A stretch of 64,000 nucleotides of DNA from the human T2T-CHM13v2.0 reference genome, Homo sapiens (GCF_009914755.1 NC_060931.1); one strand, 5' to 3'. Numbered from the stretch's first letter, positions 6,222 to 23,909 are shown. Made by a program: numbers and translations. Notes: generated from the letters alone by a model not told the origin.

Positions 6222-9200
6222 CTTTTTTTTCTTTTTTATTATACTTTAAGTTCTAGGGTACATGTGCACAACGTGCAGGTTTGTTACATAGGTATACATG
6301 TGCCATGTTGGTTTGCTGCAACCATCAACTCGTCATTTACATTAGGTATTTCTCCTAATGCTATCCCTCCCCCATACCCCCAGCACTCCCCACAACCCCG
6401 CTGCAGGCACCAGTGTGTGATGTTCCCCACCCTGTGTCCATGTGTTCTTATTGTTCAATTCCCACCTATGAGTGAGAACACGCAGTGTTTGGTTTTCCGT
6501 CCTTGTGATAGTTTGCTGAGAATGATGGTTTCCAGCCGCATCCATTTCCCTGAAAAAGACTTGAACTCATCATTTTGATGGCTGCATAGTATTCCATGGT
6601 GTATATGTGCCACATTTTCTTTATCCAGTCTATCATTGATGGACATTTGGGTTGGCTCCAAGTCTTTGCTATTGTGAATGGTGCCCCAGTAAACATACGT
6701 GTGCATGTGTCTTTATAGTAGCATGATTTATAACCCTTTGGGTATATACCCAGTAATGGGATGGCTGCGTCAAATGGTATTCCTAGTTCTAGATCCTTGA
6801 GGAATCCCCACACTGTCTTCTACAAAATGGTTGAACTAATTTACACTGCCACCAACAGTGTAAAAACATTCCTATTTCTCCACATCCTCTCCGGCATCTG
6901 TTTCCTGACTTTTTAATGATTGCCATTCTAACTGGTGTGAGATGGTATCTCATTGTGGTTTTGATTTGCATTTCTCTGATGGCCAGTGATGATGAGCATT
7001 TTTTCATGTGTCTCTTGGCTGCATAAATGTCTTCTTTAGAGAAGTGTCTTTTCAAATCCTTTGTCCACTTTTTGATGGGATTGTTTGTTTTTTTCCTGTA
7101 AATTTGTTTAAGTTCTTTGTAGATTCTGGATATTAGCCCTTTGTCAGATGAGTAGATTGCAAAAATTTTCTCCCATTCCATAGGTTGCCTGCCACTCTGA
7201 TGGTAGTTTCTTTTGCTGTGCAGAAGCTCTTTAGATTAACTAGACCCATTTGTCTATTTTGGCTTTTGTTGCCATTGCTTTTGGAGTTTTGGTCATGAAG
7301 TCTTTGCCCATGCCTAGTCCTCAATGATATTGCCTAGGTTTTCTTCTAGGGTTTTTATGGTTTTAGGTCTAACATGTAAGTCTTTAATCCATCTTGAATT
7401 AATTTTTGTATAAGGTGTAAGGAAGGGATCCAGTTTGAGCTTTCTACATATGGCTAGCCAGTTTTCCCAGCATCATTTATTAAATAGGGAATGCTTTCTC
7501 CATTTCTTGTTTTTGTCAGGTTTATCAAATATCAGATGGTTGTAGATGTGTGGTGTTATTTCTTAGGCCTCTGTTCTGTTCCATTGGTCTATATATCTAT
7601 TTTGGTACCAGTACCATGCTGTTTTGATTACTGTAGCCTTGTAGTATAGTTTGAAGTCAGGTAGCATGATGCCTCCAGCTTTGTTCTTTTTGCTTAGGAA
7701 TGTCTTGGCAATGTGGGCTCTTTTTTGGCTCCATATGAACTTTAAAGACGTTTTTTCCAATACTGTGAAGAAAGTCATTGGTAACTTGATGGCGATGGCA
7801 CTGAATCTATAAATTACCTTGGGCAGTATGGCCATTTTCACAAGATTGATTCTTCCTATCTATGAGCATAGAATATTCTTCCATTTGTTTGTGTCCTCTT
7901 TTATTTCATCGAGCAGTGGTTTGTAGTTCTCCTTGAAGAGGTCCTTCAAATTCCTTGTAAGTTGGATTCCTAGGTATTTTATTTTCTTTATCGTAATTGT
8001 GAATGGGAGCACATTCATGATTTGGCTCTCTGTTTCTCTGTTATTGCTCTATAAGAACGCTTATGATTTTTGCACATTGATTTTGTATCCTGAGACTGCT
8101 GAAGTTGCTTATCAGCTTAAGGAGATTTTGGGGTTTTCTAAATATACAATCATGTCATCTGCAAACAGGGACAATTTGACTTCTTCTTTTCCTAATCAAA
8201 TACCCTTTATTTCTTTCTCTTGCCTGCTTGCCCTGGCCAGAAGTTCCAACACAATGTTGAATAGGAGTGATGAGAAAGGGCATCCCTGTTTCGTGCCAGT
8301 TTTGAAAGGGAATGCTTCCAGTTTTTGCCCATTCAGTATGATCTTGGCTGTGGGTTTGTCATAAATAGCTCTTATTATTTTGAGATACATTCCATCAATA
8401 CCTAGTTTATTGAGAGTTTTTAGCATGAAGGGTTGTTGAATTTTGTCAAAGGCCTTTTCTGCATCTATTGAGATAATCATGTGGTTTTTGTCGTTGGTTC
8501 TGTTTACGTGATGGATTACATTTATTGATTTGCATATGTTGAACCAGCCTTACATCCCAGGGATGAAGCCCACTTGATCATGGTGGATAAGCTTTTTGAT
8601 GTGCTGCTGGATTCGGTGTGCCAGTATTTTATTGAGGATTTTCGCATTGATGTTCATCAGGGATATTGGTCTAAAATTCTTTTTTTTTGTTGTGTCTCTG
8701 CCAGGCTTTGGTATCAGGATGATGCTGGCCTCATAAAATGAGTTAGGGAGGATTGCCCCTTTTTCTACTGATTGGAATAGTTTCAGAAGGAATGGTACCA
8801 GCTCCTCTTTGTACCTGCAGTAGAAATCCACTGTGAATCTGTGTGGTCATGGACTTTTTTTGGTTGGTAGGTTATTAATTATTGCCTCAATTTCAGAGAC
8901 TGTTATTGGTCTACTCAGAGATTCAGCATCTTCCAGGTTTACTCTTGGGGGGTGTTTGTGTCCAGGAATTTATCCATTTCTTCTAGGTTTTCTAGTTTAT
9001 TTGCAGAGAGGTGTTAATAGTACTCTGTGATGGTAGTTTGTATTTCTCTGGGATCGGTGGTGATATCCCCTATATCATTTTTTATTGCGTCTATTTGATT
9101 CTTCTCTCTTTTCTTCTTTATTAGTCTTGCTAGCGGTCTATCAATTTTGTTGATCTTTTCAAAAAACCAGCTCCTGGATTCATTGATTTTTTGAAGGGTT

Positions 9201-12200
9201 TTTTCTGTCTCTATCTCCTTCAGTTCTACTCTTATCTTAGTTATTTCTTGCCTTCTGCTAGCTTTTGAATTTGTTTGCTCTTGCTTCTCTAGTTCTTTTC
9301 GTTGTGATGTTAGGATGTCGATTTTAGATCTTTCCTGCTTTCTCTTGTGGGCATTTAGTGGTATAAATTGCCCTCTACACACTGCTTCAACTGTGTCCCA
9401 GAGATTCTGGTACATTGTATCTTTTTTCTCATTGGTTTCAAAAAGCATCTTTATTTCTGCCTTCATTTCATTATTTACTCACTGGTCATTCAGGAGCAGG
9501 TTGTTCAATTTCCATGTAGTTGTGTGGTTTTGAGAGAATTTCTTAATCCTGAGTTCTAATTTGATTGCACTGTGATCTGAGAGACTGTTTGTTGTGATTT
9601 CTGTTCTTTTACATTTGCTGAGGAGTGCTTTACTTCCAACTACGTGGTCAACTTGAGAATAAAGTGTGATGTGGTGCTGAGAAGAATGTATATTCTGTTG
9701 ATTTGGGGCGGAGAGTTCTGTAGATTTCCATTAGGTCAGCTTGGTGCAGAGCGGAGTTCAAATCCTGGATATCCTTGTTAACCTCCTGTCTCGTTGATCT
9801 GTGTAATATTGACAGTGGGGTGTTAAAGTCTCCCATTATTATTGTGTGGGAGTGTAAGTTTCTTTGTAGGTCTCTAAGGACTTGCTTTATGAATCTGGGT
9901 GCTCCTGTATTGGGTGCATATATATTTAGGATAGTTAGTTCTTCTTTTTGTATTGATTCCTTTACCATTATGTAATGGTGTTCTTTGTCTCTTTTGATCT
10001 TTGTTGGTTTAAAGTATGTTTTATCAGAGACTAAGATTGCAACCCCTGCTTTTTTTGCTTTCCATTTGCTTGGTAGATCTTCCTCCATCCCTTTATTTTG
10101 AGCCTTTGTGTGTCTCTGCATGTGAGCTGGGTCTCCTGAATACAGCACACTTACGGGTCTTGACTCTTTAACCGATTTGCCAGTCTGTGTCTTTTAATTG
10201 GGGCATTTAGCCCATTTACATTTAAGCTTAATATTTTTATGTGTGAATTTGATCCTGTCATTATGATGTTAGCTGGTTATTTTGCCCATTAATTGATGCA
10301 GTTTCTTCATGGCATCGATGGTGTTTACAATTTGCATGTTTTTGCAGTGGCTGTTACTGGTTGTTACTTTCCATGTTTAGTGCTTCCTTCAGGAGCTCTC
10401 ATAAGGCAAGCCTGGTGGTGACAAAATTTCTCAGCATTTGCTTGTCTGTAAAGGATTATATTTCTCCTTCACTTTTGAAGCTTAGTTTGGCTGGATATGA
10501 AATCCTGGGTTGAAAATTCTTTTCTTTAAGAGTGTTGAATATTGGCCCCCACTCTCTTCTGGCTTGTAGGGTTTCTGCTAAGAGATCCGCTGTTAGTCTG
10601 AGGGGCTTTCCTTTGTGAGTAACCCGACCTTTCTCTCTAGCTGCCTTTAGCATTTTTTTCTTCATTTCTACTTTGACGAATCTGACAATTATGTGCCTTG
10701 GGGTCGCTCTTCTCAAGTAATGTCTTTGTGGTGTTCTCTATATTTCCTGAATTTGAATGTTGGCCTGCCTCTCTAGGTTGGGGAAGTTCTCCCAGATAAT
10801 ATCCTGAAGAGTGTTTTCTAACTTGTTTCCATTCTCCTCATCACTTTCACGTACATCAATCAAATGTAGATTTGGTCTGTTCACATAGTCCCATATTTCT
10901 TGGAGGCTTTGTTCTTTTCTTTTTACTCTTTTTTCTCTAATCTTGTCTTCTTGCTTTAATTCATTAATTTGATCTTCAATCACTGATATCCTTTCTTCCA
11001 CTTGATCGAATCAGCTATTGAAGCTTGTTCATGCATCATGAAGTTCTCGTTTTCAGCTCCATCAGGTCATTTAAGGACTTCTCTACACTGTTTATTTTAG
11101 TTAGCCATTTGTCTAACCTTTTTTCAAGGTTTTGAACTTCCTTGCGATCGGTTAGAACATTCTCTGAGATGGGTTAGTTCGGAGAAGTTTGTTATTAACG
11201 ACCTTCTGAAGCCTACTTCTGTCAACTCATCAAAGTCATTCTCCATCCAGCTTTGTTCCATTGCTGGTGAGGAGCTGCGATCCTGTGGAGGAGAAGAGGC
11301 ACCCTGGTTTTTAGAATTTTCAGGTTTTCTGCTCTGGTTTCTCCCCATCTTTGTGGTTTTATCTACCTTTACTCTTTGATGATGGTGACCTACAGATGGG
11401 GTTTTGGTGTGGATGTCCTTTTTGTTGATGTTGATGCTATTCCTTTCCATTTGTTAATTTTCCTTTTAATAGTCAGTTCCCTCAGCTGCAGGTCTGTTGG
11501 AGTTTGTTAGGGGTCCACTCCAGACCCTGTTTGCCTGGGTATCACCAGTGGAGGCTGCAGAACAGCAAATATTGTGGAACAGAAAATATTGCTCCCTGAT
11601 CCTTCCTCTGGAAGCTTTGTCTCAGAGGGGCACCCACCTGTATGAGATGTCTCTCGGCCCCTACTGGGAGGTGTCTCCCAGTTGGGTTGCACGGGGGTCA
11701 GGGACTCACTTGAGGAGGCAGTCTGTCTGTTCTCAGAGCTCAAACACCATACTGGGAGAACCTCTGCTCTCTTCAGAGCTGTCAGGCAGGGACATTTAAG
11801 TCTGCAGATGTTTCTGATGCCTTTTGTTCAGCTATGCCCTACCCACAGAGGTGGAGTCTATATAGGCAGTAGGCGTTGCGGAGTTGCGGTGGGCTCCACC
11901 CAGTTGGAGTTTCCTGGCCATTTTGTTTACCTACTCAAGCCTCAGCAATGGCAGACGACCCTCCCCCTGCCAGGCTGCAGCCTCAGAGATCGATCTCAGA
12001 CTGCAGTGCTAGCAGTGAGCAAGGCTCTGTGGGCATGGGACCCACCGAGCCAGGCATGGGACAGAATCTCCTGGTCTGCTGGTTGCTAAGACCATGGGAA
12101 AAGCACAGTATTTGGCCAGGAATGTCCTGTTTTTCCAGGTACAGTCTGTTACAGCTTCCCTTGGCTAGGAAAGGGAAATCCCCCGACCCTTGCACTTCCT

Positions 12201-23700: not shown

Positions 23701-23909
23701 AACATCGCACACCAGGGCCTGTCTTGGGGTGGGGGAGTGGCGGAGGGATAGCATTAGGAGAAATACCTAATGTAAATGACGAGTTAATGGGTGCAGCAAA
23801 CCAACACGGCCCATGTATACTTATTTAACAAACCTGCACGTTGCGCACCTGTACCCTAGAACTTAAAGTGTAATAAAAAATAATAAAATAAATAAATAAA
23901 AAATTAAAT
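17733..23909 (+). mobile_element. Full-length L1 (L1PA6-like), ORF1 and ORF2 disrupted
   Basis: GGGG..CAAGATGGCC 5' end, ORF1/ORF2 fragments including FADD, 3'UTR, A-rich tail; imperfect TSD AAATAA(T/G)CAT at ~17720 and ~23910. Confidence 0.97.

What the first reader, a model, noticed from the sequence alone, without database searches (positions are those of the whole stretch)
6222..23909. Two inverted full-length L1s share many private mutations, including the same ORF2 stop: concerted evolution of a 6-kb inverted repeat
Seen: the left (minus) and right (plus) L1s have different host elements (L2 vs older L1 5'UTR), different 5' tips and their own TSDs (clear on the left, imperfect on the right), so they look like separate insertions. 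Yet both carry the same departures from the recalled L1PA consensus: WNRTEA-TAA nonsense (7563-7565 / 22555-22557; consensus Ser TCA), KTYF for KTDF (10016/20101), LHSH for LDSH (9854/20268), KMLF for KMFF (~9445/~20675), AHRIQ for ANRIQ (8618/21504), KTFL for KTIL (7700/22420), ATTTGAAGG for ATGTGAAGG, GACAGAAA for GACACAAA, AAGATAAGA for AAGATCAGA, and 5'UTR changes GAGTAAAGG, AAATGGAAAG and CTGTGGGTAGGG. Many are transversions, so homoplasy is unlikely. The copies still differ by ~5% in one hand-aligned 240-nt block. Inference: an active source cannot carry the stop, so post-insertion mutations were copied between arms by patchy gene conversion (hairpin pairing over the 5.3-kb loop). The alternative is trans-mobilisation from one defective parent.
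Basis: partly seen in the sequence, partly recalled or inferred. Interest (0 to 1): 0.8.

Follow-up and report, generated by a model that had tools for sequence, protein, structure and literature searches.

The report
Old gene conversion between inverted L1s
Two dead L1 retrotransposons of different ages that sit head to head 5 kb apart swapped the middle of their sequence long ago, which is why both carry the same private mutations, including one stop codon; this is a clear example of a known process.

Summary
Left arm (6222-12384, minus) and right arm (17743-23888, plus) share the ORF2 TAA and every listed motif. 26-30 shared variants are absent from all 5-16 other L1 copies compared.

These variants are pair-private, not a sub-lineage signature:
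- The 5'UTR dinucleotide occurs in 2 of 2426 genomic copies of its 26-mer.
- The KMLF pair occurs in 3 of 3186.
- No other locus combines two of the searched variants.

They are confined to R 18281-22556, with 18-20 in one ORF2 block and none in the last 1.3 kb. In the 5'UTR/ORF1 and 3'UTR the arms carry different subfamily haplotypes, each common genome-wide. They are therefore independent insertions from different sources, which argues against one defective parent.

Best reading: ancient non-crossover ectopic gene conversion, with a main tract of 2.5-3.0 kb and possibly small 5' patches. Direction is unresolved. There is no ongoing concerted evolution, because the arms are now about 10% apart, like unlinked copies. 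This is a known kind of event and of moderate interest.

The parts
6222..12384 (-). Left full-length L1 (older subfamily type in its 5'UTR/ORF1 and 3'UTR), lying between its two TSD copies. Homology to the right arm runs 6224-12377.
   Evidence: subfamily type
12385..12402 (-). TSD copy at the left L1's 5' (inner) side
   Evidence: 17 of 18 identical to 6204-6221
6204..6221 (-). TSD copy after the left L1's poly-A tail (outer side)
17743..23888 (+). Right full-length L1 (younger subfamily type in its 5'UTR/ORF1 and 3'UTR), followed by an A-rich tail to about 23915. No recognisable TSD.
20083..22556 (+). Main shared tract in the right arm, minimal extent (maximal extent 19827-22817). It holds 18-20 pair-private shared variants, ending at the ORF2 TAA (22555-22557).
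   Evidence: L+R sister clade in the tree of 21200-22560, SH-aLRT 96
7564..10034 (-). The same tract in the left arm, minimal extent (maximal extent 7304-10291), with the TAA at 7563-7565.
18673..18944 (+). Tentative small shared patch in the 5'UTR/ORF1 start (left arm about 11165-11449). It includes the GT dinucleotide at 18750/51, which only these two arms have genome-wide.
   Evidence: bounded by discordant subfamily sites at 18485 and 18992
19613..19659 (+). Tentative second small patch (left arm 10458-10504): two shared private variants between discordant sites 19172 and 19826.
22818..23888 (+). 3' 1.07 kb with no shared private variant (none after 22556). The left arm keeps old-type states and the right arm young-type states at 9-11 subfamily-diagnostic sites (left arm 6224-7303).
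12403..17742 (.). 5.3-kb spacer between the two 5' ends (head-to-head arrangement). No inverted homology extends beyond the L1 ends.

Best explanation
Two full-length L1 elements inserted independently, head to head and 5.3 kb apart. The left one came from an older source on the primate L1 subfamily ladder and the right one from a younger source. While they were still similar enough to pair, a break in one arm was repaired from the other by non-crossover homologous recombination (ectopic gene conversion). This overwrote 2.5-3.0 kb of ORF2 and possibly one to three shorter patches in the 5'UTR/ORF1.

The donor's private mutations up to that time, including the ORF2 nonsense codon, were copied into the acceptor. 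No defective element ever had to retrotranspose. Afterwards both arms decayed independently by about 4% each and are now too diverged to exchange.

Shown: the variants are pair-private, their distribution is mosaic, the flanks belong to different subfamilies, the left TSD is intact, and there is no recent homogenisation. Inferred: the repair mechanism, its timing, and the number and direction of events.
For: 1. Pair-private haplotype.
- 30 shared variants are absent from 5-12 comparators, and 26 are absent from 16.
- Genome-wide exact searches: the 5'UTR GT occurs in 2 of 2426 copies of its 26-mer. The KMLF pair occurs in 3 of 3186. The KTYF 33-mer occurs only in L and R. The KTFL 23-mer has 7 hits, the AHRIQ 23-mer 49 and the TAA context 31. 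No locus other than L and R appears in two of these lists.
- The 5 other KTFL copies carry none of the other six private variants.
- The chr22 KMLF copy shares 3 of 12 sites.
- 27 TAA-bearing copies placed in the alignment carry none of the other six.

2. Mosaic distribution.
- 20 shared private variants lie in 19827-22817, 0 in 22818-23888 (expected 7.2, P=7.8e-4) and 1 in the first 757 bp.
- A runs test on shared versus discordant sites gives 17 runs among 58 sites. 43 of 100000 shuffles give as few.
- L and R form a clade in the tree of 21200-22560 (SH-aLRT 96). In the tree of 22800-23880 they sit four nodes apart, with L basal and R next to L027.

3. Different sources.
- With 6 L-type and 10 R-type comparators, L is old-type and R young-type at 18 of 30 diagnostic sites outside the tract and at 0 of 5 inside (p=0.019).
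- Against an older and a younger comparator group, discordance is 10 of 36 sites downstream of 22818 and 2 of 44 upstream (p=0.005).
- Both flank haplotypes are common genome-wide: the 3' 17-mers have 6776 (L) and 15245 (R) matches, and L's 5'UTR 23-mer has 44.

4. Non-crossover outcome. L's TSD copies still flank L, so the spacer has not undergone a net inversion.

5. Equal decay after the event. Arm-private variants in the tract number 90 (R) and 87 (L).

6. Precedent in print.
- Non-allelic conversion between nearby TEs, elevated within 10 kb: PMC6598467 (passages read).
- Alu subfamily switches by conversion: PMC8230782 (passages read).
- Repair of a break in a chromosomal LINE by conversion from other LINEs: Tremblay 2000, seen only as cited in PMC1920257.
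Against: - The AU test does not reject an L+R clade in the 3' 1.1 kb (p=0.21, log-likelihood 10.97 lower).
- Only 5 subfamily-diagnostic sites lie inside the main tract once six L-type comparators are used. The stronger contrast (0 of 12 versus 15 of 25, p=0.0004) rested on two comparators and is largely withdrawn.
- Direction is inconsistent. L has young-type states at 21588, 21837, 22296 and 18500. R has old-type states at 18251, 18277, 18393, 20359 and 20707.
- L-R divergence inside the tract is not measurably lower than outside, relative to the comparators (mean ratio about 0.98 versus 1.03). The timing therefore rests on variant counts alone.
- The small 5' patches interleave with discordant sites; for example 18992 lies between shared sites 18944 and 18999. 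Several of these shared sites are transitions that could be parallel changes.
- A tract of 2.5 kb or more is long for mammalian mitotic conversion (from general knowledge, not tested).
- The comparators are a convenience sample. One search scored only 40 of 7941 candidates. Exact-pattern searches miss diverged copies: I estimate by hand about 15% chance of missing a full-length third member across the six patterns.
- No outgroup primate sequence was available.
Confidence: 0.75

Rival explanations
1. Both arms were retrotransposed from one defective parent that already carried the stop and the other shared variants, mobilised in trans by another L1's proteins. The parent could lie elsewhere, or one arm could be the parent of the other.
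For: The shared haplotype includes a nonsense codon and a shared 1-bp loss in an A-run. The right arm has no clear TSD. The AU test cannot reject L+R as sisters in the 3' end.
Against: - A copy made by target-primed reverse transcription starts at the 3' end. Yet the last 1.3 kb holds no shared private variant (P about 6e-5 to 8e-4).
- The 3' end differs at 9-11 subfamily-level sites, and the 5' 2 kb differs at 16. Both haplotypes at these sites are common genome-wide.
- No third copy with the haplotype exists in the genome searched.
- Two offspring of a source elsewhere landing 5 kb apart has a chance of order 1e-5 (my estimate).
Confidence: 0.05
2. Chimeric retrotransposition: while one element was being inserted, the reverse transcriptase switched template onto nascent RNA of the neighbouring element and back again, so the middle of the new copy is a cDNA of the neighbour.
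For: The structure is mosaic, with foreign flanks around a shared middle. The right arm has no clear TSD and an odd 5' tip. From recall, template switching by L1 reverse transcriptase is documented for U6/L1 chimeras; this was not checked here.
Against: It needs at least two switches between two RNAs, and more if the small 5' patches are real. It also needs the neighbour's RNA to be at the integration site. It does not explain sites where each arm carries the other's subfamily state in different patches. No test here separates it cleanly from conversion.
Confidence: 0.07
3. The shared variants mark a small active sub-lineage that was under-sampled here, and the two members lie together by chance. 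The TAA would then be a coincidence or a single small conversion.
For: An under-sampled subfamily can mimic the signal. The two young-type comparators L015 and L016 share 21 'private' variants. The L036-L039 pair reaches 6 in the 3' half.
Against: Genome-wide counts are 2 of 2426, 3 of 3186 and a 33-mer unique to the pair. No other locus combines variants. The arms differ in subfamily outside the tract. Chance adjacency of the only two members is very unlikely.
Confidence: 0.05
4. Inverted segmental duplication of a single L1 insertion.
For: There are two 6.15-kb arms in inverted orientation whose homology ends at the L1 ends.
Against: Homology stops exactly at the L1 termini, and the flanks are unrelated. 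The left arm has its own TSD. The arms differ in subfamily in both flanking parts.
Confidence: 0.02

Closest known systems
Non-allelic (ectopic) gene conversion between neighbouring Alu elements (Kass 1995; Roy 2000; Aleshin and Zhi 2010, as cited in PMC6598467; survey in PMC8230782)
   Same: Post-insertion transfer of non-diagnostic private mutations and of subfamily states between nearby copies of one repeat family. The rate is reported as elevated within 10 kb and at high identity. It creates mosaics and distorts age estimates.
   Different: Here the partners are 6-kb LINEs in inverted orientation. The main tract is 2.5-3 kb, roughly ten Alu lengths. A nonsense codon was spread. The event is inferred from one genome, without orthologous loci.
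[quoted passage not shown]
   Same: An L1 sequence is replaced in place by sequence from another L1 through homologous repair.
   Different: From what I saw, those cases involve unlinked or unspecified donors and short tracts (13 bp to a few hundred bp in the PMC1920257 passages). Here donor and acceptor are an adjacent inverted pair, and both survive for comparison.
Arm-to-arm conversion in large palindromes such as those of the Y chromosome (recalled, not looked up here)
   Same: Inverted arms separated by a short spacer exchange sequence without crossover.
   Different: Those palindromes stay above 99.9% identical through ongoing conversion. These arms are about 10% diverged and show no recent exchange.
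Twin priming in L1 integration (mentioned in PMC1920257)
   Same: It produces inverted L1 segments at one locus.
   Different: Twin priming gives one truncated and inverted element inside one TSD. It does not give two full-length elements 5.3 kb apart with a separate TSD and different subfamily types.

Membership tests
Ectopic gene conversion between dispersed repeats | The two copies arose independently (different sources and different insertion sites) | tested here: met
   Flanks are unrelated and the left arm has its own TSD. Subfamily haplotypes differ at 18 of 30 diagnostic sites outside the tract. Both haplotypes are common genome-wide.
Ectopic gene conversion between dispersed repeats | A bounded tract in which the copies share derived states absent from other family members | tested here: met
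   18-20 pair-private variants lie in 20083-22556 and none in the last 1.3 kb. Genome-wide rarity is shown.
Ectopic gene conversion between dispersed repeats | Phylogenetic incongruence between the tract and its flanks | tested here: inconclusive
   L+R form a clade in 21200-22560 (SH-aLRT 96). They are four nodes apart in 22800-23880, but the AU test gives p=0.21.
Ectopic gene conversion between dispersed repeats | Non-reciprocal transfer with an identifiable donor and acceptor | tested here: inconclusive
   Only 5 diagnostic sites lie in the tract, and they point both ways.
Ectopic gene conversion between dispersed repeats | An orthologous locus in an outgroup shows the pre-conversion state | not testable with these tools
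   No primate genomes other than the window's own assembly were available.
Concerted evolution (ongoing homogenisation) | Divergence between the copies is held well below that of unlinked copies of the same age | tested here: not met
   L-R identity is 89.2% overall, against 88.8-89.5% for R versus unlinked full-length copies. Window ratios are 0.82-1.18. The larger indels are not shared.
Full-length L1 (primate L1PA lineage) | 5'UTR start, ORF1, ORF2, 3'UTR and A-tail collinear with other full-length copies | tested here: met
   Both arms align end to end with full-length genomic copies, and the tails and 5' ends are visible. Both are degraded: the longest stop-free stretch is 216 aa in R and 181 aa in L. 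The subfamily name (L1PA6, L1PA7 or similar) was not tested, because no Dfam library was available.

The most novel reading that the evidence does not exclude
The pair records several early exchanges in both directions: a main ORF2 tract plus 5' patches in which each arm carries the other's subfamily states. If so, closely spaced inverted full-length L1s would routinely pass through a short phase of fold-back or sister-chromatid templated repair just after the younger one lands. Such a phase would spread inactivating mutations between neighbours and bias divergence-based L1 ages genome-wide.
Probability: 0.15. Interest if true: 0.5.

Novelty: new member of a known kind. Interest (0 to 1): 0.35.

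Why it matters
The case resolves an apparent paradox without rare trans-mobilisation. A disabling stop shared by two 'separate' insertions was copied sideways after insertion. It also shows that private, non-diagnostic mutations can be shared between neighbouring L1s. That affects divergence-based dating, subfamily assignment and source-element inference for closely spaced L1 pairs. Both donor and acceptor survive here with intact unconverted flanks, so the locus is a convenient test case for timing L1-L1 conversion across primates. It changes nothing fundamental, because gene conversion between nearby repeats is well documented.

Tried and rejected
- **Similarity search as a census.** Only 40 of 7941 candidates were scored, and the left arm itself was not listed. 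I used exhaustive exact-pattern searches instead.
- **Overall identity as a test.** L-R is no closer than unlinked pairs, so any recent or whole-arm homogenisation is rejected.
- **Transversion excess.** The shared variants are 14 transitions to 16 transversions. Arm-private variants under the same filter are 100:79 and 112:83, so there is no distinct mutational signature.
- **Shared indels.** The only one is a 1-bp loss in an A8 run, which is prone to recurrence. The 12-bp deletion in R and the 13-bp deletion in L are arm-specific.
- **Direction of transfer from two comparators.** R looked like the donor. Three more L-type copies removed most of those sites as lineage-specific, so direction is left open.
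- **Candidate third members.** The chr22 copy with the KMLF pair shares 3 of 12 sites. The five other KTFL copies carry none of the other six private variants.
- **Khan et al. 2006.** The paper could not be opened. The subfamily ages used come from passages of PMC7449397 (L1Pa7-L1Pa3, 30-10 MYA), and the subfamily names for the two arms are my guess.
- **Searches for prior description.** Searches found general literature on TE conversion but nothing on this locus or on adjacent inverted L1 pairs. Subscription journals are mostly not covered.

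
Full report
**What is there.** The window holds two full-length L1 elements in head-to-head inverted orientation.
- The left arm L lies at 6222-12384 on the minus strand. 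The right arm R lies at 17743-23888 on the plus strand. Their 5' ends face each other across a 5.3-kb spacer.
- blastn aligns them end to end at 89.2% identity over 6197 columns, with 578 mismatches and 50 gap openings (blocks).
- Homology stops at the L1 ends, and the flanks are unrelated.
- L is bracketed by an 18-bp target-site duplication (12385-12402 and 6204-6221, 17 of 18 identical). R has no flank repeat longer than 6 nt.
- Both are long dead. The longest stop-free stretch is 216 aa in R and 181 aa in L.

Both arms read TAA in the same ORF2 frame at 7563-7565 and 22555-22557. In a similarity-chosen sample of 29 other copies the codon is TCA in 25 and never TAA.

**Is the shared set a sub-lineage signature? 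No.**
- In the 3' half, aligned with 57 other copies, six shared variants plus the TAA are absent from all others. Only 1 of 1386 comparator pairs reaches six.
- Over the full length, 30 shared variants are absent from 5-12 comparators, and 26 survive 16 comparators. L-R is the top pair of 55.
- The second pair, L015-L016 with 21, shows that an under-sampled subfamily can mimic this signal. I therefore relied on exhaustive exact-pattern counts over the whole genome:

| Pattern | Genome-wide matches |
|---|---|
| 5'UTR GT dinucleotide (26-mer) | 2 of 2426 copies of its 26-mer |
| KMLF pair (27-mer) | 3 of 3186 |
| KTYF two-variant 33-mer | L and R only |
| KTFL 23-mer | 7 |
| AHRIQ 23-mer | 49 |
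| TAA context | 31 |

- No place other than L and R appears in two of these lists.
- The five other KTFL copies carry none of the other six private variants.
- The chr22 KMLF copy shares 3 of 12 sites.
- The 27 TAA-bearing copies in the alignment carry none of the other six.
- The haplotype is therefore private to this pair. Each single variant recurs elsewhere only as scattered homoplasy.

**No concerted evolution.**
- R is as far from L as from unlinked copies. Over the full length R-L is 89.2% identical, against 88.8-89.5% for R versus unlinked full-length copies. Over the 3' 3 kb R-L is 89.6%, against mostly 89-92% for R versus other copies of similar type.
- In every 500-bp window the L-R distance is 0.82-1.18 times the mean distance of either arm to the comparators. 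The longest identical run is 101 bp.
- A 12-bp deletion in R and a 13-bp deletion in L are not shared. The only shared indel is a 1-bp loss in an A-run.
- Whatever linked the arms happened early and then stopped.

**The sharing is mosaic.**
- The private shared variants run from R 18281 to 22556. 20 of them lie between 19827 and 22817.
- None lies in 22818-23888 (7.2 expected, P=7.8e-4). None lies after 22556 at all. One lies in the first 757 bp.
- Outside the main block the arms differ at sites where both states are common among other copies. These are subfamily-level differences that predate insertion.
- Downstream of 22818, L keeps the older state and R the younger state at 9-11 sites that separate an older from a younger comparator group. 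Discordance is 10 of 36 there against 2 of 44 upstream (p=0.005).
- In the 5'UTR and ORF1, L matches one group of copies and R another, at runs of linked sites.
- With six L-type and ten R-type comparators, L is old-type and R young-type at 18 of 30 diagnostic sites outside the main block and at 0 of 5 inside (p=0.019).
- The flank haplotypes are abundant genome-wide. The 3' 17-mers have 6776 matches (L form) and 15245 (R form). L's 5'UTR 23-mer has 44.
- A runs test on the ordered shared and discordant sites gives 17 runs in 58 sites. 43 of 100000 shuffles give as few.
- Trees agree. L and R are a clade in 21200-22560 (SH-aLRT 96). In the ladder-like tree of 22800-23880, L is basal to the younger copies and R sits four nodes higher beside L027. 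The AU test does not reject forcing them together (p=0.21).

**Interpretation.**
- The arms are independent insertions from different rungs of the single L1 lineage. Passages of PMC7449397 describe that lineage and date L1Pa7-L1Pa3 to 30-10 MYA. My guess that L is about L1PA7 and R about L1PA6 is untested.
- A whole-element copy, whether a common defective parent, a parent-daughter pair or a segmental duplication, cannot give different subfamily flanks. It also cannot leave the 3' end, where reverse transcription starts, free of shared private variants.
- The simplest account is ectopic gene conversion between the arms. The main tract spans at least 20083-22556 and at most 19827-22817 in R coordinates (7564-10034 and 7304-10291 in L).
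- The donor's private mutations, the nonsense codon among them, were copied across. No defective element needed to be mobilised.
- L's intact TSD pair shows there was no net inversion of the spacer, so the outcome was non-crossover.
- Arm-private variants in the tract are equal, 90 in R and 87 in L. Shared ones number 20, so the event fell after roughly a fifth of the donor's private branch. That fraction is an upper bound if some shared variants came from the donor's own source.

**What remains open.**
- Direction. Two comparators suggested R to L. With more L-type copies most of those sites dropped out, and the few that remain point both ways: L is young-type at 21588, 21837 and 22296, and R is old-type at 20359 and 20707.
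- The small 5' patches are tentative. These are 18673-18944, which includes the genome-unique GT; 19613-19659; and perhaps 18251-18393, where R carries old-type states. They interleave closely with discordant sites, and several are transitions.
- A template-switching chimera formed at insertion cannot be excluded without outgroup genomes, though it needs at least two switches.

**Comparison with what is known.**
- Non-allelic conversion between nearby repeats is established for Alu. The rate is reported as higher within 10 kb (PMC6598467, passages), and subfamily switches occur in both directions (PMC8230782, passages).
- L1 breaks repaired from other L1s are reported in Tremblay 2000 and in an intrachromosomal case, both seen through PMC1920257. 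Burton 1991 was seen only as a title in a reference list.
- This locus is a well-resolved L1-L1 instance with an unusually long tract, in which both partners are preserved. It is a new member of a known kind.
- My searches found nothing on this locus or on adjacent inverted L1 pairs. They do not cover most subscription journals.

Noticed in passing
window 5032-5346: A short plus-strand L1 3'-end fragment lies just left of the left arm. It pairs in inverted orientation with 6389-6702 at 82-91% identity (blocks I17 and I22).
   Followed up: no
window 14833-15706: An older, minus-strand L1 3' fragment lies inside the spacer. It is 74-79% complementary to 22700-23555 of the right arm (blocks I10, I11 and I20).
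   Followed up: no
window 17700-17742 and 23889-23960: The right L1 has no recognisable target-site duplication: the longest shared flank word is 6 nt. It also has an atypical 5' tip. This could reflect decay or a non-classical 5' junction.
   Followed up: partly
loci L037, L045, L053, L054, L057 (contigs C4, C9, C13, C14, C21): Five TAA-bearing L1 copies with the same context give almost identical alignment spans and identities to the query. They look like one L1 carried in a segmental duplication, partly on acrocentric chromosomes. I left four of the five out of the diagnostic-site counts.
   Followed up: no
window 20893-20993: This is the longest run of perfect L-R identity, at 101 bp against about 57 expected for the maximum. 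It lies in the window with the lowest L-R to comparator distance ratio, 0.82. It may mark a somewhat later small exchange or simply a slowly mutating stretch.
   Followed up: partly
The genome search: The DNA similarity search over the window's own genome scored 40 of 7941 candidates and did not list the left arm. The left arm is 94% identical to the query over the 428 nt of block I4, more than any listed hit. Its rankings should not be read as nearest neighbours.
   Followed up: yes
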